Position numbers and translations under genes: made by a program. A DNA stretch of 38,036 bases from an uncultured Phycisphaeraceae bacterium (GTDB lineage: Bacteria; Planctomycetota; B15-G4; JADJEK01), in the NCBI GenBank assembly GCA_964649825.1, contig CAZYQW010000109.1:1-38036 (forward strand). The letters run 5' to 3'. The number at the start of each line of letters is the position of its first letter. Within the stretch, counting starts at the first letter, position 1. Under the pieces are notes generated by a model. That model saw only the letters and a list, made by a program, of their open reading frames with translations, was not told the DNA's origin and made no database searches. Positions 234 through 38,036 of the stretch are shown in pieces.

Positions 234-3200
234 ATGACGGGTGACGCCAAGCAGGGCGCGGACGACGAGTCACGCGATCGCCTGGAGGCGTTGATCGCGG
301 CGTGCATCGAGCGCATGGACGAGGGCGACACCGCCTCCGTCACCGCGCTGCTGGATCGCGAGCCGGCGCTGGCCGACCGGGCGCGGGAGGTGCTCGCGTC
401 CCTGATGCATGTGGGAATGGTCGGCGCCGACCGCGTCGCGCCGGACCTCGAGGGGTCGCTCGGCGAGTACCGGCTGCTGCGGCGCCTCGGCTCGGGCGGG
501 ATGGGGACGGTCTACCTCGCGCGCCAGGAATCGCTCGGCCGGCTGGTGGCGGTCAAGGTCGCGCACGCCGAGGCCGACACCACCATCGAGGTCGAGCGCT
601 TCCGGCGCGAGGCGCGCGCGATCGCCTCGCTCCGCCACCCGAACATCGTCCACGTGTTCGGCGTCGGCGAGGTCGACGGGCGGCACTACCTCGCGATGGA
701 GTACATCCCCGGCCGCAGCCTCGCGGAGTGGATGAGGTCGGACCCGATCCCGGTGCCACGGGCGCTGGAGTGGATCCGCCGGATCGCCCTCGCGCTGCAC
801 GTTGCTCACGACAAGGGGATCGTCCACCGCGACGTCAAGCCGACGAACATCCTGATCGACGACCGCCTGCGGCCGTTGCTGGTCGACTTCGGGCTGGTGC
901 GCGAGGCGGGCGCCTCCGAGCTCACGCGCAGCGGGAGTTTCGTCGGCTCCCCGATGTACGCCGCCCCGGAGCAGATCGCCGGAAACGCCGCGATCGGACC
1001 GCGGAGCGACGTCTATTCGCTGGGCGTGACGCTGTACGAGCTCGTCGCCGGCCGTCCGCCGTTCGTTGGCGAGACCACCGAGCGGCTGTTCCACCAGATC
1101 CTGACCGCAACCGCGCCGGCGATCCGCGAACTCCGGCGCGACGTCTCGCGCGACCTGGAGGTCGTGATCCATCGTGCGATCGAGTGCGACCCCGCGCATC
1201 GGTACGCGAGCGCCGCGGAGTTCGCGCGCGACCTGGAGGCGTTGCTCGAGCTGCGCCCGATCGCCGCGCGGCCGCCGGGGCTCGCGCGGCGGGGGAGCCG
1301 CTTCCTCCGCGCGCACCCGGTTGCGAGCACCGCCGGCGCGGTGGCCGCGCTCGCGATCGCGGCGTTCCTCGCGGTCTCGCTGTGGCAGTCCGCGGCGGAG
1401 GCCCGGCGCCGGCGCGACCTCGCGCGGGAGGCGATGGATCGGGCGCGAGGCGAGCTCGCTCACGTCGACTCGGCGGGCGCCCCGCGCGCGGAGGACCTCG
1501 CGGCGCGCCGCGATCGCCTCGCGCTCCGCTATCAGCCGGACGAGGCGTGGGACGCCCTCGACCGCGCGGCCCACGCGCTCCATGTCCACACGGACCGGGC
1601 CGAGACACGACTGGCGGGCGCGCTGCGGGATCTCGATCGCGCGGAGCAGCTCGGCGCCGCGCGCGCGTCCGTCGACGAGCTGCGCGCGCTCGTCCACCTC
1701 GAGCGCTGGCGCTTGTCGCGGCGGGCCGGGGAGCGCCGCGCGAGCGACTACTACCGGCGACAGATCGAGCGGTACGACGCGGCGGGCAGACACCGGGCGG
1801 AGCTGCTCGGACTCGGCGCGGTGCGGTTCGACAGTGATCCGCCGGGAGCGGACGTGTTCCTCTTCCGGCTGGTCGACCGGATGCAGTTCGACGCCGAAGG
1901 GGAGTCGCGGCTTGTGCCGACCCCGAACCGCGAGGGAGATCCACCCGTCGCGCCGGGAGCGCTGTGCATGCGGGTGTGGCGGGACGCGCCTCCGCTCCGC
2001 GAGTCGGACCTCGTCGTCGAGGTCGCCGGCGTCCCGGTCGATGGCGCGGTCGTCGTCGTGCGGGGGGACGGAGCCGGCGTCGAGCCGGGCGATCTCCTGG
2101 CAACCGTCGACGGCGTCGCGGTCCGGTCGACGGAGGACGCGAGCCTCCGGATCGTCACGAAGGCGACGTCGGGCGGGAGCGTCCCGGGCGATGGTCCGGA
2201 GAGCGAGGTGGGCTTTGTCGGCCGTGACGGGCGGCAGGTGACGCGACGCTGCCGCCACATCAGGGAACTCGGGATCGGAGCGCTCGATGCGCGCTCGCTC
2301 GCGGAGCGCGGAGACGTCGACGCGGTCGTGCTGCGCGACGGCGAGCGTGTGCTCCTGCGGCTGCCGCACGACCCTCCGCTGCGCGCGACGACCTCCCCGC
2401 TCGCGATGAGCCCGGAGTGCCACGCTGCGTCCACGCCGGCCGAAGCCATCGACCTGCAGGAGGGGCCCTGGATCGCGGTGTTCCGCGCCAATGAGCGCCA
2501 TCACGCCGTCGTGCCGTTCGACGTCGTCGCCGGAGCGGAGACCGAGGTCGCCGCGGACCTGATTCCGGTGGGCGGGATCCCGGGCGGGTTCGTGGCGATC
2601 ACCGGTCGGAGCGAGGCGGTGGAGACCCCGTTCTTCCTGCAGGAGCACGAGGTCACCTTCGAGCAGTACCTCCCGTTCCTCAACGACCCGGAGATCCAGG
2701 CGGAGATCGACGCGTCCGCGACGCCGATCCTCTATCCGCGCGAGCTGGACAACGCGCGGAGCGTCGGCTTTCTCGCGCGCGAGGCGGACGGCCGGTTCGT
2801 CCCGCGGTTTCCGCAGCAGGCGAAGCTGCCGCTGCCCGGCGTCTCCTACAAGGACGCGACGGCCTTCGTGAGCTGGATGAACCGGCGCGCGGAGGGCGTC
2901 GGGGCCCCTTGGCGGTTCGACCTGCCGACCCTCGCCGAGGTCGACCACGTCCGACAGGCGTCGCGATACCGCGCGTACCCGACCGGTCCGTCCTTCCGGC
3001 CGCACTGGTTCAACGGGTATTTCACCGGACCGGAGGCTTCGCTGCGTCCGGTGTTCTGGACGCCGCAGGACGAGGTGCCGCCCGGGGTCTTCAACCTCGC
3101 GGGCGGCGTCTCGGAGTGGGTGAAGGACTGGTACGACGAGGGGAACCGGCTGCGCGTGACGATCGGCGGGAGCTGGATGAGCACTGATCCGCACGAGTTC

Positions 3201-3281
3201 CGGCTGGATCATCGCGGGTTCCTCGGCGAAGACACATACGCCAACAAGTGGGGCTTCCGGCTCGTCGCGCGCCCTCGCTGA
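234..3281 (+). CDS. Transmembrane Ser/Thr protein kinase with C-terminal formylglycine-generating-enzyme (FGE/SUMF1-like) domain
   Basis: N-terminal Hanks kinase motifs (GSGGMGTVYLA, VAVK, HRDVKPTNILID, DFGLVRE, APE). One TM helix near aa 365-390. C-terminal region matches the FGE-sulfatase fold (GVFNLAGGVSEWVKDWY ... GGSWMSTDPHEFRLDHRGF). Conserved STK N-terminal helix motif shared with the kinase at 33907-36804. Confidence 0.85.
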   Translation: MTGDAKQGADDESRDRLEALIAACIERMDEGDTASVTALLDREPALADRAREVLASLMHVGMVGADRVAPDLEGSLGEYRLLRRLGSGGMGTVYLARQESLGRLVAVKVAHAEADTTIEVERFRREARAIASLRHPNIVHVFGVGEVDGRHYLAMEYIPGRSLAEWMRSDPIPVPRALEWIRRIALALHVAHDKGIVHRDVKPTNILIDDRLRPLLVDFGLVREAGASELTRSGSFVGSPMYAAPEQIAGNAAIGPRSDVYSLGVTLYELVAGRPPFVGETTERLFHQILTATAPAIRELRRDVSRDLEVVIHRAIECDPAHRYASAAEFARDLEALLELRPIAARPPGLARRGSRFLRAHPVASTAGAVAALAIAAFLAVSLWQSAAEARRRRDLAREAMDRARGELAHVDSAGAPRAEDLAARRDRLALRYQPDEAWDALDRAAHALHVHTDRAETRLAGALRDLDRAEQLGAARASVDELRALVHLERWRLSRRAGERRASDYYRRQIERYDAAGRHRAELLGLGAVRFDSDPPGADVFLFRLVDRMQFDAEGESRLVPTPNREGDPPVAPGALCMRVWRDAPPLRESDLVVEVAGVPVDGAVVVVRGDGAGVEPGDLLATVDGVAVRSTEDASLRIVTKATSGGSVPGDGPESEVGFVGRDGRQVTRRCRHIRELGIGALDARSLAERGDVDAVVLRDGERVLLRLPHDPPLRATTSPLAMSPECHAASTPAEAIDLQEGPWIAVFRANERHHAVVPFDVVAGAETEVAADLIPVGGIPGGFVAITGRSEAVETPFFLQEHEVTFEQYLPFLNDPEIQAEIDASATPILYPRELDNARSVGFLAREADGRFVPRFPQQAKLPLPGVSYKDATAFVSWMNRRAEGVGAPWRFDLPTLAEVDHVRQASRYRAYPTGPSFRPHWFNGYFTGPEASLRPVFWTPQDEVPPGVFNLAGGVSEWVKDWYDEGNRLRVTIGGSWMSTDPHEFRLDHRGFLGEDTYANKWGFRLVARPR

Positions 3282-3304
3282 CGAGGGCTTCCGGCTCGTC
3301 GCGC
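3252..3304 (+). repeat. Direct duplication (2 x ~20 bp, ggcttccggctcgtcgcgcg) spanning the kinase stop codon
   Basis: The last codons of the kinase gene (WGFRLVARPR*) are repeated immediately after the stop. Confidence 0.5.
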
Positions 3305-3352
3305 GTCCCCGCGGATCGGGTCCGGCGCTACAATCGCGCCACGAGGTGCTCG

Positions 3353-3943
3353 ATGGTCGAAGGCGCGGAGTTCGAGCGGCGGTTCCGGCGGGCGAAGCGC
3401 GGCGACGCCGAGGCCCGGCGCGAGCTCCTGGAGGACGAGATCACCCGTCTCCGCGCGTACGTCCGCCTCAAGACCGGCCCCGCGATCCGCGCGCGCGAGT
3501 CCTGTTCCGACCTCGTGCAGTCGGCGTGCCGCGAGGCGCTGGAGGGCATCGATCGGATCGAGTGCGAGAACGCGCCCGCGTTCCGGCAGTGGCTGTTCCA
3601 GGTGGCCCTGAACAAGATCCGCCACCGCGCGGAGTACTGGGGCGCCGATCGCCGTGATCGGGCGCACGAGGAGCGGATGGGCGCCGCCGACGCGGAGGCG
3701 CTGTGGGCGACGTACGGCGGCGGCGACTCTCCCAGTCGGCACGCCTCCGCGCGCGAAGGCGTCGAGCGCATCGAGGCCGCGATGGACCGGCTGTCGGAAG
3801 AGCACCGCGAGATCATCGTCCAGGCGCGGATCCTCGGTCGCCCGCACCGCGACATCGCACGCGAGACCGGACGATCGGAGGAGGCCGTCCGTCAGCTCCT
3901 CGCCCGCGCGAGGGCGAGGCTCGGCATGTTGATGCTGGAGTGA
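3353..3943 (+). CDS. ECF-type RNA polymerase sigma-70 factor (STK-associated ECF family)
   Basis: Sigma-70 region 2 (LVQSACREALEGIDR..FRQWLFQVALNKIRHR) and region 4 HTH (EEHREIIVQARILGRPHRDIARETGRSEEAVRQLLARAR). Sits downstream of the kinase on the same strand. Confidence 0.85.
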   Translation: MVEGAEFERRFRRAKRGDAEARRELLEDEITRLRAYVRLKTGPAIRARESCSDLVQSACREALEGIDRIECENAPAFRQWLFQVALNKIRHRAEYWGADRRDRAHEERMGAADAEALWATYGGGDSPSRHASAREGVERIEAAMDRLSEEHREIIVQARILGRPHRDIARETGRSEEAVRQLLARARARLGMLMLE

Positions 3944-4339
3944 CCCTCGCGCCGTCGGCGGCGGCGAAGAAGACCCACGAGATCCAGATCGCCGAAGCGC
4001 TGGAGGAACACCGCGTGGTCGAGGAGTTCGTCCTGCCGGACCTGGAGAAGACCGAACCCGCGGCCATCGATTTCAGCGGCCGCGCCAAGGTCCTGAAGGA
4101 CCTGGTCACCGACCACGCCGAGGAGGAGGAGGAGGAGGAGGAGGAGGAGGAGGAGCGGCCGTTCGGCGGTCGTCGGGCCCTCGACTCGATGCGCCGCGCG
4201 GGCCGTTGCCGCGGCCGTGATCGGCGAGGACGGCGCCCGGGCGCCGAGCTTCGAACCACGCTGGAGGCGACGCTCCGGCTGACGCTCGCTACCATGGCGA
4301 CGTGCGCGAACCGTCTTCGTCCAATCTGCGGGGCCCGAG
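3940..4339 (+). CDS. Orphan acidic ORF with poly-Glu tract; start overlaps sigma stop (GTGA); no in-frame stop before ftsH (3' end undefined)
   Basis: Strong GC3 coding signal in VTLAPSAAAKKTHEIQIAEALEEHRVVEEFVLPDLEKTEPAAIDFSGRAKVLKDLVTDHAE(E)12. The frame stays open to 5106, overlapping ftsH out of frame, so the true C-terminus is unclear. Possible frameshift or pseudogene. Confidence 0.3.
4120..4155 (+). repeat. (GAG)12 trinucleotide repeat encoding a Glu12 tract
   Basis: Perfect 36-nt GAG repeat seen directly in the sequence. Confidence 0.9.
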
Positions 4340-6241
4340 GTGAATCTGAATCAGAAGACTCGCTTCAACGTCGGCTACGTCCTGTTCGCGATCCTGGGAA
4401 TCCTGCTCCTCCAATCGTTCTTCAACGAGTTCGCCAAGGTCCGTTCGATCAGCTACAGCGACTTCGATCAACTGCTGAAGGACGGCAAGGTCGAGGAGGT
4501 CATGGTCTCCCCCGACGAGATCCGCGGACGACTCAAGGAGAAGGTGGAGGGCAAGGAGTACTTCGTCACCACGCGGGTCCCGCTCGACGTCGCGGACCGC
4601 CTGGAGCAGCACCAGGTCGAATACACGGGCGAAGTCCCGAGCCATTTCCTGGCCACGCTGCTCTCGTGGTTGCTGCCGGTGCTGCTCTTCGTCGGCATCT
4701 GGGTCTTCATGATGCGACGGATGGGGACGGGCGGGTCGCAGCTCCTCTCGATCGGCAAGAGCAAGGCGAAGGTGTACGTCGAGACCGACACGAAGGTCAC
4801 GTTCTCCGACGTGGCCGGCGTCGACGAGGCAAAGGCGGAGCTTCAGGAGACGGTGGAGTTCCTGCGGAACCCGGCCGGCGCGGGGCGGCTCGGCGGGCGC
4901 ATGCCGAAGGGGATCCTCCTCGTCGGTCCGCCGGGGACGGGGAAGACGTTGCTCGCTCGCGCGGTAGCCGGCGAAGCGGGCGTTCCGTTCTTCTCGATCA
5001 GCGGGTCGGAGTTCGTCGAGATGTTCGTCGGCGTCGGGGCGGCGCGGGTCCGCGACCTGTTCCAGCAGGCCGCCCTCAAGGCACCGTGCATCATCTTCAT
5101 CGATGAGCTCGACGCGCTCGGCCGAGCGCGCGCGGGGATGGCGGGAATGGGCGGTCACGACGAGAAGGAGCAGACGCTGAACCAGCTCCTCGTCGAGCTC
5201 GACGGGTTCGACCCGTCCACCGGGATCGTGATCCTGGCCGCGACCAATCGGCCCGAGATCCTCGACCCGGCGCTCCTGCGCGCGGGACGCTTCGACCGCC
5301 AGGTGCTCGTCGATCGTCCCGACAAGCTCGGTCGCGCCGCGATCCTGCGCGTCCACCTGAAGCGGATCAAGGCAGCGAACGACCTCGACGTCGAGCAGAT
5401 CGCGGCGCTGACCCCGGGGTTCACCGGCGCCGATCTCGCCAACCTCGTGAATGAGGCGGCGCTCGCCGCCACGCGGCGCAACGCCCAGTACGTCGAGATC
5501 GAGGACTTCACCGTCGCGGTCGAGCGCATCGTGGCCGGGCTCGAGAAGAAGAGCCGCATCCTGAACGAGCTGGAGCGGCGCGTGGTCGCCCATCACGAGA
5601 TGGGGCACACCATCGTCGCGCAGGCGCTGCCCGGCTGCGATCCCGTCCACAAGGTCTCGATCATCCCGCGCGGGATCGGCGCCCTCGGCTACACGCTTCA
5701 ACGCCCCACCGAGGACCGCTATCTGATGACGCGGGACGAGATGGAGAACCGGATGACGGTGATGTTGGGTGGTCGCGCCGCCGAGATGATCGTCTTCGAT
5801 CACCACTCGACCGGCGCGGCCGACGACCTCGCGCGGGTCACCGATCTGGCGCGCAGCATGGTCGCCCGCTACGCCATGGAGCCATCGCTGGGGCCGATCG
5901 TCTACGACGTGGATCCACAGCCCCGCTTCCTCGGCGACGGGCTCGGCGGAGGACGCGGGAACACCTTCTCCGAAGAGACCGCGCGCGCGCTCGATCACGC
6001 CGTCCGCGCGCTGGCCGAACGCGCGTTCGAGCGCGCCCTGACGATCCTGCGGCGGAACCGGGCCCTCCTCCTCGAGGCGGCGGCCCAGCTCCAGCGCGAC
6101 GAAGTGCTCGAAGGTCCAGCGCTGAAGAGGATCCTCGATCGCGTGACCGTGGAGGGATCCGTTCGGCCCGGCGCGGACGTCGACGAGACCAGCGCATCCG
6201 ACCCCACGGGAATGACTCGACGAACCTCGGATCCTCTTTGA
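4340..6241 (+). CDS. ftsH: ATP-dependent zinc metalloprotease FtsH
   Basis: GTG start 5 nt after a GAGG. N-terminal TM helices. AAA+ Walker A (GPPGTGKT) and Walker B (IIFIDELD). SRH region ([19 protein letters not shown]). HEMGH zinc motif. Confidence 0.95.
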
Positions 6242-6317: not shown

Positions 6318-6848
6318 GTGAACGGACCTCGAACGAACGGCTCCCGGCGATCGCGGCGCACCACGCTCGTCGTGGCGTTGCTCGCGGGGCTGGCTGGAAT
6401 GGCCGCGTACGCGTTCCACTACGCCGAGGGGAGCTCCTATCTGAGCACCGATCCACGCGCGTGCACCAACTGCCACATCATGCAGTCGCAGTTCGATTCC
6501 TGGCAGAAGGCGAGCCATCACACCGCCGCGACCTGCGTCGACTGCCACCTTCCGGCGGAATTCCCGGAGAAGTACTTCGCCAAGGCGAAGAACGGCTGGA
6601 ACCACTCGAAGGCGTTCACGCTGCAGAACTTCCACGAGCCCATCCGCATCACCGAACCGAACGCCGAGATCCTCCAAGACAACTGCCTCAGATGCCACGG
6701 AGGAATCACCAGCGACATGGTCGCGGGCGCGACGACGCACGCCGACGCGGTTCGCTGTGTGCACTGTCATCGAACCGTCGGCCACGGGGAACCGGTCGGC
6801 CTCGGCGGACCGTTCGATCGCACCGAGATTCCAGAGGAAGACGAATGA
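6318..6848 (+). CDS. nrfH: Cytochrome c nitrite reductase small subunit NrfH (NapC/NirT-family tetrahaem quinol dehydrogenase)
   Basis: N-terminal TM helix. Four CxxCH haem motifs (CTNCH, CVDCH, CLRCH, CVHCH). GTG start after GAGGGAA. Stop overlaps the nrfA start (ATGA). Confidence 0.9.
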
Positions 6849-10441: not shown

Positions 10442-10519
10442 GGTGGGTGTAGCTCAGTTGGTTAGAGCGCCACACTGTGGCTGTGGAGGTCGCGGGTTCA
10501 AATCCCGTCACTCACCCCA
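10442..10519 (+). tRNA. tRNA-His (anticodon GTG) with extra 5' G(-1)
   Basis: Cloverleaf read manually. Acceptor GTGGGTG/CACTCAC. D-arm GCTCAGTTGGTTAGAGC. Anticodon loop CTGTGGC. T-arm GCGGGTTCAAATCCCGT. Discriminator C, then CCA. Confidence 0.85.
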
Positions 10520-10560
10520 TCCTCACGACCTGCGACCGAGACCACCGTCGAACCCAAGGT

Positions 10561-10637
10561 GCGCCCGTAGCTCAACTGGATAGAGTATCGGGCTTCGAAC
10601 CCGAGGGTTGCAGGTTCGAGTCCTGCCGGGCGTACCA
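10561..10637 (+). tRNA. tRNA-Arg (anticodon TCG)
   Basis: GCGCCCGTAGCTCAACTGGATAGAGTA. Anticodon stem TCGGG/CCCGA with loop CTTCGAA. T-arm GCAGGTTCGAGTCCTGC. Ends ...CGGGCGTACCA. Confidence 0.85.
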
Positions 10638-10660
10638 ACTCCCTTGCTCCTCCCCCTATC

Positions 10661-10700
10661 CCATCGGTCCCCATCGGTCCCCATCGGTTGCCAGCGGTTG
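10661..10700. repeat. 10-bp tandem repeat (ccatcggtcc x ~4, last copies degenerate) between tRNA-Arg and tRNA-Lys
   Basis: ccatcggtcc ccatcggtcc ccatcggttg ccagcggttg, seen directly. Confidence 0.8.
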
Positions 10701-10866
10701 CACTGGGCCCTCCGGTCTCGGCCGCGTGACCTGTGAACATGGGATCACCGAAACGCGCCGTCGAGCGGGCGGCCAAGCTTCTCGATCGCGACCTTGACAC
10801 GGAATCGAGTTCCGCTAAAAGAGCAGGTTTCCCTCCCGACCGCGGGAGGCGATGGCGGAAACGCGG

Positions 10867-10942
10867 GCCCTCTTAGCTCAGTTGGTAGAGCAGCTGATTC
10901 TTAATCAGCGGGTCGTAGGTTCGAGTCCTACAGAGGGTACCA
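10867..10942 (+). tRNA. tRNA-Lys (anticodon CTT)
   Basis: Acceptor GCCCTCT/AGAGGGT (G1-U72 wobble). D-arm GCTCAGTTGGTAGAGC. Anticodon stem GCTGA/TCAGC with loop TTCTTAA. T-arm GTAGGTTCGAGTCCTAC. ACCA 3' end. Confidence 0.85.
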
Positions 10943-14398: not shown

Positions 14399-14483
14399 GC
14401 GAGGATGGCGGAACCGGCAGACGCGCCAGATTTAGGATCTGGTGGGGCAACCCGTGGGGGTTCGAGTCCCCCTCCTCGCACCA
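14399..14483 (+). tRNA. tRNA-Leu (anticodon TAG), class II with long variable arm
   Basis: GCGAGGATGGCGGAACCGGCAGACGC D-arm. Anticodon stem CCAGA/TCTGG with loop TTTAGGA. Long variable arm. T-arm GGGGGTTCGAGTCCCCC. ...TCCTCGCACCA. Coordinates are +/-1 because local base counting was ambiguous. Confidence 0.8.
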
Positions 14484-33906: not shown

Positions 33907-36804
33907 TCAGTCCTCGCCGGCGGGACTCGCGCGGTCCAGCGTGCCGAGCCGAGCCTTCCAGCGCCACACCTCCTCGGGCCGAAGTCGCTCGTACAGGGCG
34001 ATCAACGCCACGATCGGCTTCTCCAGCTTCGGGCTGACCGGACCGAACCGGTCGCAGTGGCGTACGTACGACTCCAAGAGGTACGGCTCGGCCCGCTCGG
34101 GCCCGCCGGCGAGAAGGAGCTCCCCGCCCGCGTTGTGCAGCGCGAACAACGCGTCGTCGCCGTTTCGCTCCCGTTCGTCGGGCTGGAGCTCGAGCCAGGC
34201 GGCGTAGTGCATCGCGCGCGCGACGCGCGATCCGCCGGCCTTCCCGTGGAGCATCCCGAGGTCCCAGTGGGCGCGGCGAAGCTCGCCGAACGGGTCCTCC
34301 TCATGATGCCGCCGCATGAACGCGAGGGCTCGTTCGAGGTAGTCGATCGCGAGCTCGAACCGGCCGTAGTGGTGCATGATGACGCTGTATGCCCGCAGCG
34401 CGCGAGACCACATCAGGCTCGACCTCTCCGCCGTCGCCTCCAACAGAACCAGCGCCTCGTACGCGATCGGCTCGGCCTCGCCGAGCCGGCCCGTGCGGAA
34501 CCGATACTCCGCGCAGTTCAGCATCGTCTCCGCCACGTCGAGGGAGAGCTCGCCGCTCGACCGGCGCCGGCGATCGAGCGCGTCGTCGACGAGGGTGATC
34601 GCTTCCGCGAAGTTCCGCTGATCGGCCAGCGTGCGCGCGAGGAGTACCTGCTGCGTCAGCGTCTCCGGATGGTCCGGACCCATCACCGCGCGGCTTCTCG
34701 CCAGCACGTCCCGATAGAGCGTCTCGGCCTCGGCGACCCGTCCCTGCTTGTGTCGAAGCTGTGCGACGTTCCCACGCGTGATCAGCGTGTTGGGATGATC
34801 CGGGTCTCTTCGCAGGTGGAGCTCGAGGGCTCGTTCGAGCAGCGGGCCCGCCTCCTCGAAGCGGCCCCCGATCAGCAGGACGAACCCGAGGTTGTTCAGC
34901 GGCTCACACAGTCGTGGCGAGTCCGACCCGGCGACGCGCGTGATCCCGCCGACGGCGGCGCGGAACCACGTCTCCGCCTCGGCGAGCCGGTTCTGTGCCC
35001 GATAGACGCCGCCGATGTCGTTCTGCGCCGCGAACACCTCGACGTCCTCGTCGCCGCGGACGCGCCGCAGGATCTCGAACCGGCGCATGAGGACGGTGTG
35101 CGCAAGCTCGAGGCGGCCGGCGGTTTTGTGGATGACGGCGAGAACGTACAGCGTGTCGGTGTACCTCGGGTCTTCCTCGGCGAGACGCGCGCCGAAGATC
35201 TCGAGCGCGCGTTCCGCGTGTTCCAGCGCCGGGTCGAGCACGCCGAGGTGCGCGTAGACCCGTCCGATCGTCTGGTGAATCCGACCCGCGATCAAAGGAC
35301 GCTCGCCGAACCGCTCCTCCACGCCGGCCGCGCTCCGGTCGACGACGTCGCGCACCGTTTGATCGCGTGAGCCGTGCCATGGATCGCCGGACGAGAGCAT
35401 CTCGGTCAGGAAACCGGCGGTCACCTCCGCGTCGGCGAGCCCACGCTCCGCGTCCGCCTGCGCGCGCTCGGCAGCGGAGCGTTCGCGCTCGGCGTCGGCG
35501 CGTGCCACCTTGGCGTCCTCCAGCGAGCCGAGCGTGATGACGAGCGCGATCGAGAGCGCGACGAGCACCGCGGCCGTCGCCGCGACCGGGATCCGGTTGC
35601 GCTGCACGAACCGCGTCGCCCGGTAGATGACGGTGTCGCGCTGCGCCCGGACCGGGCGGCCGTCCACGAACCGTCGCAGGTCCTCGGCGAAGTCATGCAC
35701 GCTCGCGTAGCGCCGCGATGGATCGACGCGAAGCGCCATCATGACGATTCGATCGAGGTCGCCCCGCAGGGTCCGGCCCAGCGCCTTCGAGGTCGTCCGT
35801 CGGCGACGTGCGCACTCGACGGCGTCGTAGTCCGTCTGGCGCGACGCCGCGCCGCCGTCGACGGCGTAGCTCGGCGGCGCCGGCGGCTCATCGTTCACCA
35901 ACCGTTCCATCTCCGCCGGCGACAGCGACGAAAGGTCGTGTGGAAGGCGCCCCGTCAGGAGCTCGTACAGCACGACGGCAAGCGAATACTGATCGCTCGG
36001 CGGCCGGATCGTCGCCCGCCGGAACTGCTCCGGGCTCGCGTACGACGGGGTCATGTAGCCGAGCGAGTCGGTGGTCAGGGTGAGATCGCCCCCCAGCTTC
36101 TCCGGACTCAGGACTCCGGCGAGCCCGAAGTCGAGCAGTTTGGGATCGCCGTCGGGCCCGACCAGGATGTTCCCCGGCTTGAGGTCGCGGTGAATGACTC
36201 CGTTCTTGTGGGCGTGCTCCACCGCGCCGCAGACCTTGACGAAGATGCCGATGCGCTCGCGCACGTCCAACTCCGCGGCGTCGCAGTAGCGGTCGATCGG
36301 CACGCCGTCGACGTACTCCATGACGAGGTACGGAACCCCGTCCGCGTCGGCGCCGGCGTCGATCAAGCGCGCGATGTTCGGATGGACGAGCGCGGCGAGG
36401 ACGCGACGCTCGCGCCGGAAGCGGGACAGGACTTCTCCCGAGTCGAGGCCGGGGCGCACGCGCTTCACGGCCACTGTGCGGTCGAACGTGCCATCGATCC
36501 GCCGAGCGAGGAAGACCTCGCCCATTCCGCCCGCACCGATCGGCTCGCCGAGCTCGTACGCGCCGATCCGACGGGTACGCCCGGGGCTCTCGAGCACCTC
36601 GGAGTAGGCGGGGAACACCACGATCGGGTCGAGCGCGGCCTCCGACTCCTCGACCGCGATCAGACCCTCGATTTCGCGCAGCAGATCCGGATTGCCGTAC
36701 GTCCGCTCACGAAGGAACGCGCGGCGCTCGTCGGCGGGGACATCGAGGGACTCCTCGAAGAGCTGCAGCACGCGACGCTGGCGATCCGGGTCGCGCTCAG
36801 TCAT
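33907..36804 (-). CDS. Transmembrane Ser/Thr protein kinase with C-terminal TPR repeats
   Basis: Kinase motifs (GAGGMGEVFLA, VAVK, HRDLKPGNILV, DFGLA, SPEQ). One TM helix. ~550 aa of TPR-like repeats. Start overlaps the upstream ECF sigma stop by 8 nt. Confidence 0.85.
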   Translation of the reverse strand: MTERDPDRQRRVLQLFEESLDVPADERRAFLRERTYGNPDLLREIEGLIAVEESEAALDPIVVFPAYSEVLESPGRTRRIGAYELGEPIGAGGMGEVFLARRIDGTFDRTVAVKRVRPGLDSGEVLSRFRRERRVLAALVHPNIARLIDAGADADGVPYLVMEYVDGVPIDRYCDAAELDVRERIGIFVKVCGAVEHAHKNGVIHRDLKPGNILVGPDGDPKLLDFGLAGVLSPEKLGGDLTLTTDSLGYMTPSYASPEQFRRATIRPPSDQYSLAVVLYELLTGRLPHDLSSLSPAEMERLVNDEPPAPPSYAVDGGAASRQTDYDAVECARRRRTTSKALGRTLRGDLDRIVMMALRVDPSRRYASVHDFAEDLRRFVDGRPVRAQRDTVIYRATRFVQRNRIPVAATAAVLVALSIALVITLGSLEDAKVARADAERERSAAERAQADAERGLADAEVTAGFLTEMLSSGDPWHGSRDQTVRDVVDRSAAGVEERFGERPLIAGRIHQTIGRVYAHLGVLDPALEHAERALEIFGARLAEEDPRYTDTLYVLAVIHKTAGRLELAHTVLMRRFEILRRVRGDEDVEVFAAQNDIGGVYRAQNRLAEAETWFRAAVGGITRVAGSDSPRLCEPLNNLGFVLLIGGRFEEAGPLLERALELHLRRDPDHPNTLITRGNVAQLRHKQGRVAEAETLYRDVLARSRAVMGPDHPETLTQQVLLARTLADQRNFAEAITLVDDALDRRRRSSGELSLDVAETMLNCAEYRFRTGRLGEAEPIAYEALVLLEATAERSSLMWSRALRAYSVIMHHYGRFELAIDYLERALAFMRRHHEEDPFGELRRAHWDLGMLHGKAGGSRVARAMHYAAWLELQPDERERNGDDALFALHNAGGELLLAGGPERAEPYLLESYVRHCDRFGPVSPKLEKPIVALIALYERLRPEEVWRWKARLGTLDRASPAGED

Positions 36805-37497: not shown

Positions 37498-37595
37498 GAG
37501 TCTGGGCGTCGTTCCGGACGACGCGAACAGGCGGAACGACGTGGTACGCGGGAGCGGGGACGAAGAGTTCTCCAGAGTGATACCGCGTGGAACGG
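37498..37595. repeat. Copy A of a ~98-bp direct repeat upstream of the ECF sigma gene
   Basis: gagtctgggcgtcgttccggacgacgcgaacaggcggaacgacgtggtacgcgggagcggggacgaagagttctccagagtgataccgcgtggaacgg. ~90% identical to copy B. Confidence 0.8.
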
Positions 37596-37729
37596 GGACG
37601 GACGGTCGCCGTGTTCGGCCGAGGATGGGTGATGCGGTAGCACCACTTGCTCTTAGGAAGGGAGAGGAACTTGGCGCGCGAATACGACGGTGACCGGGGG
37701 CGACGCCCGCGCCGCGTGGCCGCGGCCAC

Positions 37730-37827
37730 GAGTCTGGGCGTCGATTCCTGACGACGCGGACAGGAGGAGCGACGTGGTACGCGGGAGCGGGGACGAAGAT
37801 CTCTCCAGAGTGATACCGCGTGGAACG
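37730..37827. repeat. Copy B of the ~98-bp direct repeat
   Basis: gagtctgggcgtcgattcctgacgacgcggacaggaggagcgacgtggtacgcgggagcggggacgaagatctctccagagtgataccgcgtggaacgg. Confidence 0.8.
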
Positions 37828-38036
37828 GTGTCGCGCGGTCGCGGGCCGCGCGGCTCGATGCCAGGAAAGTCGAGGTTGTTCGACGCGGCGACTTGACCTT
37901 GGTTCGACCTGGGCTAATAGATGCCCTAATGCTGAACCGACCTTCGACGACCATGCGCAAGCGACCGGGGCCCAAGCCGAAGCGAGGGTCGGGGGTGTCG
38001 CATCACGCGCGGGAGGCGATCGACGGGCGGACTATC

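What the first reader, a model, noticed from the sequence alone, without database searches (positions are those of the whole stretch)
3940..4339. Translationally coupled (GTGA) acidic ORF after the ECF sigma gene, with a Glu12 tract and no stop codon before ftsH
A clearly coding-looking frame (strong GC3) starts at a GTG overlapping the sigma stop, the typical position of an anti-sigma or co-factor. It encodes a K/E-rich segment ending in 12 consecutive Glu from a perfect (GAG)12 repeat. It then decays into an Arg-rich tail with no in-frame stop for >1 kb, running out of frame across ftsH. Either the 3' end carries a frameshift (assembly error or genuine pseudogene) or the product ends by another mechanism. 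The element has no obvious homologue.
Basis: seen in the sequence. Interest (0 to 1): 0.5.

Follow-up and report, generated by a model that had tools for sequence, protein, structure and literature searches.

The report
Truncated hemerythrin-like gene relic with Glu12
The acidic ORF after the sigma-factor gene is the leftover middle third of a known hemerythrin-like (PA2171-family) gene. It has lost both ends, so it is most likely a dead gene fragment, not a new sigma partner.

Summary
The sequence facts hold. GTG 3940 overlaps the sigma stop codon. There is a strong coding signature up to 4155 and a perfect (GAG)12 at 4120-4155. An Arg-rich tail follows, and the frame has no stop until 5104-5106, out of frame across ftsH.

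The claim of "no obvious homologue" is wrong. Window 3961-4137 matches positions 62-120 of a ~155-residue hemerythrin-like family (E 1e-20). NCBIfam names this family "PA2171 family ribosome-binding persister protein". The first 61 and last 35 positions are found in no frame anywhere on the 38-kb contig. The same profile does recover frameshifted C-termini in two control loci.

The Glu12 tract is an expansion of the family's conserved EEE[K/E]E motif. The 184 nt after it show no coding signal in any of six frames.

None of 48 related kinase-linked ECF sigma loci carries such a gene, and none of 67 family loci lies next to a sigma factor or ftsH. An NTGA overlap ends 8 of 12 confident genes in the window, so the GTGA is weak evidence.

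Best reading: a gene relic truncated at both ends (confidence about 0.7). Rivals are a working mini-protein whose stop is hidden by an indel, an assembly fault at the repeat, or a leader ORF for ftsH. Interest is low.

The parts
234..3281 (+). Context: Ser/Thr protein kinase with a C-terminal FGE-sulfatase domain, upstream partner of the sigma gene
   Evidence: Pfam Pkinase E 4e-52 and FGE-sulfatase E 1e-20. Kinase homologues lie next to the sigma in 33 of 48 related loci.
3353..3943 (+). Context: intact ECF-type sigma factor gene (196 aa from ATG 3353), stop TGA 3941-3943
   Evidence: Pfam Sigma70_r4_2 and Sigma70_r2. NCBIfam sigma70-ECF 66.9 bits, with Planctomycetaceae subfamily 1 as best hit. 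Same length and C-terminus as the closest homologues. The identical protein is on record from NCBI and Logan.
3940..3942 (+). Candidate GTG start overlapping the sigma stop codon (GTGA)
   Evidence: Read directly from the sequence. Not distinctive: 8 of 12 confident genes here end in ATGA, GTGA or TTGA.
3961..4137 (+). Internal fragment of a PA2171-family hemerythrin-like gene (profile positions 62-120 of 155, about helices 3 and 4)
   Evidence: phmmer hits at 55-71% identity, E down to 1.7e-10 in 5.8 billion proteins. tblastn E 1e-19 to 1e-20. Own family HMM E 1e-20, positions 62-120 only. NF053874 at 65.1 bits, model positions 60-119 of 157. Codon log-odds +1.5 bits per codon.
4120..4155 (+). 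Perfect (GAG)12 microsatellite encoding Glu12. It is an expansion of the family's conserved EEE[K/E]E motif in helix 4
   Evidence: TRF: period 3, 12.0 copies, 100% matches. Family members have at most 5-6 acidic residues here. The Logan contig L116 ends inside the repeat at 4148.
4156..4339 (.).
   Evidence: Codon log-odds are -0.05, -0.31 and -0.50 on the plus strand and -0.32, -0.09 and -0.31 on the minus strand. No family similarity in any frame. No Rfam match. RNA fold z-score +1.14. No promoter-like or terminator-like consensus site in the tail.
4340..6241 (+). Context: ftsH (633 aa), in a different frame from the fragment ORF
   Evidence: Pfam FtsH_ext, AAA, AAA_lid_3 and Peptidase_M41. 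The exact 633-aa product is on record from the NCBI contig.

Best explanation
The ORF is a relic of a hemerythrin-like gene of the PA2171 family. Intact members are about 150 aa, form a helical di-metal 'HHE' bundle, and include a P. aeruginosa protein reported to bind the ribosome and FtsZ.

Only the middle of the gene survives, at window 3961-4137. This covers helix 3 with the EALEEHR histidine, the VLPDL...FSGRAKVLK loop and helix, and the start of helix 4 with the H-x3-E motif.

The 5' 40% of the gene is gone. That part holds helices 1-2 and, by inference, their metal ligands. The remnant now begins within 18 nt of the stop codon of an intact ECF sigma gene.

The 3' 25% of the gene, with its stop codon, is also gone. 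The homology ends exactly at the conserved EEE[K/E]E motif. I infer that the GAG codons of this motif expanded by replication slippage into a perfect (GAG)12.

The 184 nt that follow are non-coding DNA upstream of ftsH. The 'Arg-rich tail' and the missing stop are what an arbitrary frame of 77%-GC intergenic DNA looks like.

Shown: the identity of the fragment, both truncation boundaries, the absence of the missing parts from the contig, the loss of coding signature after 4155, and the lack of a conserved sigma-X-ftsH arrangement. Inferred: that deletions bounded by the two functional neighbours made the truncations, that slippage made the repeat, that the event is recent because the fragment still looks like coding sequence, and that no functional product is made.
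For: (1) Homology. There are 24 database proteins at 54-77% identity, several named hemerythrin domain proteins and some carrying PF01814. Full-length members from 67 metagenome loci are about 150 aa and begin M-x-A-I-x-LLK-x-DH. A full-length member passes NF053874 'PA2171 family ribosome-binding persister protein' at 197.9 bits against a cut-off of 190. The window fragment hits the same model at 65.1 bits over positions 60-119 of 157.

(2) Truncation. A family HMM of 155 positions matches only positions 62-120 (E 1e-20). Nothing matches positions 1-61 or 121-155 in six frames of the region or of the whole 38-kb contig. Frame 1 upstream of 3940 reads as Arg-rich off-frame sigma sequence.

(3) Controls. 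In L118 and L119, two damaged copies elsewhere, the same HMM recovers the shifted C-terminus at E 2.9e-5 and 6.7e-8. The negative result in the window is therefore meaningful.

(4) Coding signal. It is +1.31 bits per codon in 3940-4119 and about 0 or below in all six frames of 4156-4339.

(5) No stop until 5104-5106, out of frame through ftsH, where that frame scores -1.08 bits per codon.

(6) No conserved partnership. None of 48 related sigma loci has the fragment or ftsH nearby. None of 67 family loci has a sigma factor or ftsH nearby.

(7) The left junction and the fragment are reproduced 100% by a second assembly of run SRR10083321.
Against: The fragment shows no point-mutational decay. 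All 13 invariant family columns are kept. Its sub-profile score of 67.4 bits lies within the range of divergent intact members, 56-66 bits. Its codon signature is as strong as that of real genes. This fits a very recent truncation, but it equally fits continued selection on a shortened product.

A start codon is available in frame at the sigma stop. A single-base indel in the GC-rich tail would give a stop at 4218-4220 or 4280-4282.

No read-level data and no close relative were available; the nearest sigma is 61% identical. Neither dN/dS nor the assembly around the repeat could be checked.
Confidence: 0.7

Rival explanations
1. The ORF is a working mini-protein: a two-helix hemerythrin-derived hairpin with a poly-Glu tail. 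It is translated by re-initiation at the GTGA overlap with the sigma gene. Its real stop (4218-4220 or 4280-4282) is hidden by a one-base sequencing or assembly error in the GC-rich tail.
For: The codon signature is strong and all invariant family residues are kept. An in-frame GTG sits at the sigma stop. Stops lie 20 and 41 codons after the tract in the other two frames. AlphaFold2 draws two long helices for residues 7-37 and 47-72.
Against: The fragment lacks the half of the bundle that holds helices 1-2 and, by inference, their metal ligands. It fails PF01814 and the NF053874 cut-off. Neither alternative tail has a coding signature or family similarity. No other sigma locus has such a gene. 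The short 'homologues' in the database are mostly gene-calling artefacts: L078 has the N-terminal half upstream in frame but no ATG, and L118 and L119 are damaged copies. The model has pTM 0.34, so no confident fold. NTGA overlaps are the rule here.
Confidence: 0.12
2. This is an assembly artefact at the (GAG)n repeat. The contig is mis-joined or collapsed there, so in the real genome the gene continues with its normal C-terminus and stop, and ftsH lies elsewhere or further away.
For: The k-mer based Logan assembly of the same run breaks inside the repeat at 4148. The right-hand junction, 4156 onward, is supported by the NCBI contig only; the nearest Logan contig I could retrieve on that side starts at 5176. 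Homology and coding signal end exactly at the repeat.
Against: A 36-nt repeat is spanned by ordinary short reads and by the larger k-mers of standard metagenome assemblers. A chimeric join needs a second long GAG tract in the same community, and this one is the only such repeat in 38 kb. Even if this rival were true, the 5' truncation is confirmed by both assemblies, so the gene would still lack its first 40%.
Confidence: 0.08
3. The remnant has been co-opted as a leader or upstream ORF. Ribosomes re-initiating after sigma read through the Glu12 tract and across the ftsH start out of frame, which couples ftsH translation to sigma expression.
For: Geometry only. The frame is open from the sigma stop across the ftsH start codon.
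Against: The frame continues 765 nt into ftsH with a strongly negative codon score of -1.08. There is no conserved arrangement in any related locus. The leader has no exceptional RNA structure and no Rfam match.
Confidence: 0.04

Closest known systems
PA2171 family hemerythrin-like proteins (NCBIfam NF053874; P. aeruginosa PA2171, PMC13041383)
   Same: Window 3961-4137 aligns to model positions 60-119 of 157 at 65 bits. It keeps the family signatures EALEEHR, VLPDL, FSGRAKVLK(D/E)LV and H-A-x-EEE.
   Different: Only about 38% of the family length is present. There is no N-terminal LLK-x-DH or H-x-x-IEEEIFYPAF, no C-terminal MFP...LGE-x-M-x-x-RK, and no stop codon. The motif EEE[K/E]E is expanded to Glu12. 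The score is far below the 190-bit cut-off.
Hemerythrin HHE cation-binding domain (Pfam PF01814; nearest solved structure 6q09, 'Hemerythrin HHE cation binding domain protein')
   Same: Full-length relatives of the fragment match PF01814 end to end at 60-68 bits, and match 6q09 at E 1e-8.
   Different: The fragment itself gives no PF01814 hit even at E 10. It retains only the helix-3 His and the helix-4 H-x3-E of the expected H / H-x3-E / H / H-x3-E ligand set. The ligand pattern is taken from general knowledge of the superfamily.
Anti-sigma factors encoded directly downstream of ECF sigma genes
   Same: The position is the same: immediately downstream, on the same strand, with a 4-nt overlap with the sigma stop.
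   Different: There is no anti-sigma domain and no co-occurrence in 48 related sigma loci. The sigma is kinase-associated, a class proposed to be regulated by phosphorylation (PMC7826278).
Other decayed copies of the same family (L119, Rhodanobacteraceae MAG GCA_050738135.1; L118, ENA contig)
   Same: L119 also lacks the N-terminal ~73 positions and starts at helix 3. Both are called as 61-64-aa 'proteins'.
   Different: In those loci the C-terminal helix is still detectable in a shifted frame (E 7e-8 and 3e-5). In the window it is absent altogether.

Membership tests
PA2171 family (NCBIfam NF053874, equivalog) | Whole-protein score at or above the curated cut-off of 190 bits over the ~157-position model | tested here: not met
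   The fragment scores 65.1 bits over positions 60-119. A full-length relative (L051) scores 197.9 bits.
PA2171 family (NCBIfam NF053874, equivalog) | Significant, specific sequence homology to family members | tested here: met
   E 5.8e-18 to NF053874. E 1.7e-10 and weaker to 24 proteins. Own HMM E 1e-20.
PA2171 family (NCBIfam NF053874, equivalog) | Ribosome and FtsZ binding, and translation repression (the experimental definition in PMC13041383) | not testable with these tools
   This needs biochemistry. It was shown only for P. aeruginosa PA2171.
Hemerythrin HHE cation-binding domain (PF01814) | Pfam gathering score of 25.3 bits | tested here: not met
   No hit at E up to 10 for the 72-aa fragment or at E up to 1 for the 133-aa ORF. 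Full-length relatives score 60-68 bits.
Hemerythrin HHE cation-binding domain (PF01814) | Complete helical bundle carrying both halves of the metal-ligand set (H, H-x3-E, H, H-x3-E) | tested here: not met
   Profile positions 1-61, which hold LLK-x-DH and H-x-x-IEEE, are absent from all six frames of the contig. Only EEH and D-H-A-E-E-E remain.
Intact protein-coding gene | An open reading frame closed by a stop at a position consistent with its family | tested here: not met
   The first in-frame stop is at 5104-5106, 316 codons after the Glu tract and inside ftsH out of frame.
Anti-sigma factor or sigma co-factor | A recognisable anti-sigma domain | tested here: not met
   There are no Pfam hits. 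The only NCBIfam hit is the PA2171 family.
Anti-sigma factor or sigma co-factor | Conserved co-occurrence with the sigma family | tested here: not met
   tblastn finds the fragment in 0 of 48 related sigma loci. 33 of the 48 have a kinase neighbour instead.

The most novel reading that the evidence does not exclude
A half-hemerythrin (helices 3-4 of a PA2171-type ribosome- and FtsZ-binding protein) has been domesticated as a short, hyper-acidic protein. It is co-translated with a kinase-linked ECF sigma factor just upstream of ftsH, and its true stop is masked by a sequence error. It would act as a new kind of sigma or proteolysis modulator.
Probability: 0.06. Interest if true: 0.55.

Novelty: new member of a known kind. 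Interest (0 to 1): 0.15.

Why it matters
It matters little. The result removes a false lead, a supposed orphan anti-sigma-like gene. It shows that the ORF should be annotated as an incomplete hemerythrin-like (PA2171-family) pseudogene.

There are three minor points of interest. A conserved Glu codon run has grown into a 36-nt microsatellite once the gene's downstream part was lost. A gene relic can keep a full coding signature and an apparently coupled start, which misleads ORF-based reading of high-GC genomes. The repeat also breaks k-mer assemblies.

Tried and rejected
- **Opposite-strand gene.** The 160-aa minus-strand ORF 3813-4295 (poly-Ser) has no Pfam hit, and the minus frames of the tail score below 0.
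- **Frameshifted C-terminus.** By eye I saw 'VIGEDGAR' (frame 2) against the family's 'LGERMEAR', and 'AELRTTLEATL' (frame 1) against 'AELAELGERM'. Neither tblastn with word size 2 nor hmmsearch --max supports either.
- **N-terminal half displaced.** I looked for it upstream of the kinase or elsewhere on the contig. A six-frame HMM scan of all 38 kb gives a single hit.
- **Orthologous loci.** The genome scan with the sigma gave 48 loci, best 56% identity, none syntenic. The sigma search of 5.8 billion proteins gave 61% as the next best after self. The metagenome scan with the family alignment gave no relative above 68% identity and none next to a sigma factor or ftsH. dN/dS could therefore not be computed.
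- **The other side of the repeat in the Logan assembly.** The nearest contig I could retrieve starts at 5176. Exact look-ups of the FtsH and kinase products found nothing.
- **RNA element in the tail.** There is no Rfam hit, fold z-score is +1.14, and no promoter-like or terminator-like consensus site lies in the tail.
- **Repeats linking the region to other parts of the contig.** None found.
- **AlphaFold2 of the 141-aa conceptual product.** It draws helices throughout but with pTM 0.34. It even gives high local pLDDT to part of the non-coding tail, so it cannot discriminate.
- **Provenance of SRR10083321.** Not found in the paper library.

Full report
**Observation.**
- The window reads ...CTGGAGTGACC... 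at 3937-3946, so the sigma ORF's TGA (3941-3943) is overlapped by a GTG at 3940.
- The frame with p%3==1 is open from 3703 to 5106.
- From 3940 it encodes VTLAPSAAAKKTHEIQIAEALEEHRVVEEFVLPDLEKTEPAAIDFSGRAKVLKDLVTDHA, then twelve Glu, then an Arg-rich stretch with 17 Arg in 61 codons.
- It then crosses the ftsH start (GTG 4340, frame p%3==2) and continues to TGA 5104-5106.
- Tandem Repeats Finder gives a perfect (GAG)12 at 4120-4155. It is the only long perfect trinucleotide repeat in the 38-kb window.
- Third-position GC in this frame is 0.83-0.97 between about 3930 and 4170, with low second-position GC.
- A codon log-odds model trained on ten confident genes of the window gives +1.31 bits per codon for 3940-4119. 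ftsH gives +1.07 and sigma +0.87.

**Where the coding signal ends.** The same model gives -0.05, -0.31 and -0.50 bits per codon for the three plus-strand frames of 4156-4339. It gives -0.32, -0.09 and -0.31 for the minus-strand frames. The 'Arg-rich tail' is not coding sequence in any frame. It is 77%-GC intergenic DNA read in an arbitrary frame. It has no Rfam match and no unusual RNA structure, with z = +1.14 against shuffles. No promoter-like or terminator-like consensus site lies in it.

**What the coding part is.** A search of the first 63 residues against 5.8 billion proteins returned 24 hits. They have E down to 1.7e-10 and 54-77% identity over 41-89% of the query. Several are named hemerythrin domain proteins and some carry PF01814. 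A scan of metagenome contigs with the alignment A1 gave 67 loci.

Extending the matches to their full ORFs shows a uniform family of about 150 residues:

M-x-AI-x-LLK-x-DH ... H-x-x-IEEEIFYPAF ... MYFEALEEHR-x4-LVLPDL ... FSGRAKVLKELVEHHA-x-EEE-x-EMFP ... LGE-x-M-x-x-RK-x-EL

A full-length member matches Pfam Hemerythrin (PF01814) end to end at 67.8 bits. It also passes NCBIfam NF053874, 'PA2171 family ribosome-binding persister protein', at 197.9 bits against a cut-off of 190. Its nearest solved structure is 6q09, a 'Hemerythrin HHE cation binding domain protein'.

PA2171 of P. aeruginosa is described as a hemerythrin-like protein of five helices. It binds the ribosome and FtsZ and promotes persister formation (PMC13041383).

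**How much of the family is present.**
- An HMM built from 18 full-length members has 155 positions. It matches the window at positions 62-120 only, which is nt 3961-4137 (E 1e-20).
- NF053874 likewise matches positions 60-119 of 157 at 65.1 bits, far below its cut-off. PF01814 does not match the fragment at all.
- No frame of the region, and no frame of the whole contig, matches positions 1-61 or 121-155.
- Upstream of 3940 the frame is Arg-rich off-frame sigma sequence. The sigma itself is complete to its C-terminus by comparison with its closest homologues.

Two database 'mini-proteins' of 61-64 aa served as controls. P0002 (locus L118) and P0018 (locus L119) proved to be damaged copies. 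In both, the same HMM finds the C-terminal helix in a shifted frame, at E 2.9e-5 and 6.7e-8. The method would therefore have seen a frameshifted C-terminus in the window if one existed.

The window carries an internal fragment. Its left edge abuts the sigma stop codon. Its right edge is the conserved EEE[K/E]E motif of helix 4, now expanded to Glu12. Intact members have at most five or six acidic residues there.

**Context.**
- The window is a whole NCBI contig of 38,036 nt.
- Its sigma factor is most similar to sigma factors of Planctomycetota MAGs: 56% in species-representative genomes and 61% in the protein collection.
- The Planctomycetaceae-specific ECF subfamily is the best NCBIfam hit for the sigma.
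- The sigma follows a Ser/Thr kinase with an FGE-sulfatase domain. 33 of 48 related sigma loci also have an adjacent kinase.
- Kinase-associated ECF groups are thought to be regulated by phosphorylation rather than by an anti-sigma factor (PMC7826278).
- None of the 48 sigma loci contains a relative of the fragment or an adjacent ftsH. In the two closest loci the sigma is followed by an unrelated membrane protein.
- Conversely, none of the 67 family loci has a sigma factor or ftsH nearby.

The sigma-X-ftsH arrangement is unique to this contig, so no orthologous comparison or dN/dS was possible.

**The GTGA overlap.** Eight of twelve confident genes in the window end in ATGA, GTGA or TTGA. The ftsH start itself is a GTGA that closes a 40-codon non-coding open stretch. 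The overlap is thus expected by chance in this composition.

**Assembly.** A Logan assembly of run SRR10083321 reproduces window 591-4148 at 100% identity and stops inside the GAG repeat. This confirms the sigma-fragment junction. It also shows that the repeat breaks a k-mer assembly. The nearest Logan contig I could retrieve on the other side starts at 5176, so the junction from the repeat into the tail rests on the NCBI contig alone.

**Interpretation.** The best explanation, at confidence about 0.7, is a gene relic. A PA2171-family hemerythrin-like gene lost its 5' 40% and its 3' 25%. The surviving piece is squeezed between two functional genes, and I infer that deletions could not extend into either of them. 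I also infer that the GAG run of the surviving EEE-x-E motif expanded by slippage.

What speaks against a long-dead pseudogene is that the piece is undecayed:
- All 13 invariant family columns are kept.
- Its sub-profile score of 67.4 bits is within the range of divergent intact members, 56-66 bits.
- Its codon signature is intact.

So the truncation is either recent or the piece is still under selection. The second possibility gives the main rival, at about 0.12: a functional two-helix mini-protein whose stop is hidden by an indel in the tail. Stops are available at 4218-4220 or 4280-4282 in the other frames. Against it:
- The metal-binding bundle is only half present.
- Neither alternative tail has a coding signal.
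- No related locus has such a gene.
- AlphaFold2 gives pTM 0.34 for the conceptual product.

A mis-join at the repeat (about 0.08) would restore a normal 3' end but not the missing 5' part. A leader-ORF role for ftsH (about 0.04) has no support beyond geometry.

**Verdict.** The ORF is not an orphan and not an anti-sigma candidate. It is an incomplete copy of a known family, and its interest is low.

Noticed in passing
window 3251-3271 and 3285-3305: There is a perfect 21-nt direct repeat (GGGCTTCCGGCTCGTCGCGCG), 34 nt start to start. The first copy encodes the last residues of the kinase (..WGFRLVARPR*). The second lies just after its stop, in the kinase-sigma spacer. This is a small duplication of the gene's 3' end and a second sign of local rearrangement near the relic.
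   Followed up: partly
window 4148 and 5176 (loci L116, L117): Logan contigs of run SRR10083321 are 100% identical to the window but end inside the (GAG)12 repeat (4148), and the next one I could retrieve starts at 5176. The 633-aa FtsH product is on record only from the NCBI contig.
   Followed up: partly
L119 2880-3300 (Rhodanobacteraceae MAG GCA_050738135.1): This is another relic of the same family. HMM positions 74-130 lie in one frame and 124-154 in a shifted frame, and the N-terminal ~73 positions are missing. The upstream in-frame sequence (MANNRAIAYAGPGAVEVGGIDFPKLE...) is not family-like; it reminded me of the start of a dehydrogenase, but I did not check this.
   Followed up: partly
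L118 1000-1500 (ENA contig_57978): A full-length family gene is interrupted by an in-frame stop (..TTR*TRTR..) and by a frameshift before the C-terminal helix. The gene caller reports only a 64-aa piece (P0002). It is either an error-rich assembly or a pseudogene.
   Followed up: partly
window 4340-4343 and 4221-4340: The ftsH start codon is itself part of a GTGA. The TGA closes a 40-codon open stretch in frame p%3==0 that has no coding signature. This shows how easily 'coupled' overlaps arise by chance here.
   Followed up: yes
window 597-1054 versus 35948-36423; ORF 33907-36804 (-): Inverted-repeat similarity of 73-77% links the kinase gene to the 965-aa minus-strand ORF at the other end of the contig. 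This suggests a second, paralogous Ser/Thr kinase. It was not checked against Pfam.
   Followed up: no
window 37512-37609 and 37745-37842: A 98-nt direct repeat, 90% identical and 233 nt start to start, lies near the contig end. Its nature is unknown.
   Followed up: no
window 10443-10942 and 14399-14483: There is a tRNA cluster of His(GTG), Arg(TCG) and Lys(CTT), plus a separate tRNA-Leu(TAG).
   Followed up: no
window 6318-6848: A NapC/NirT (NrfH-like) multihaem cytochrome c gene lies directly downstream of ftsH. The identical protein is also present in the Logan assembly.
   Followed up: no
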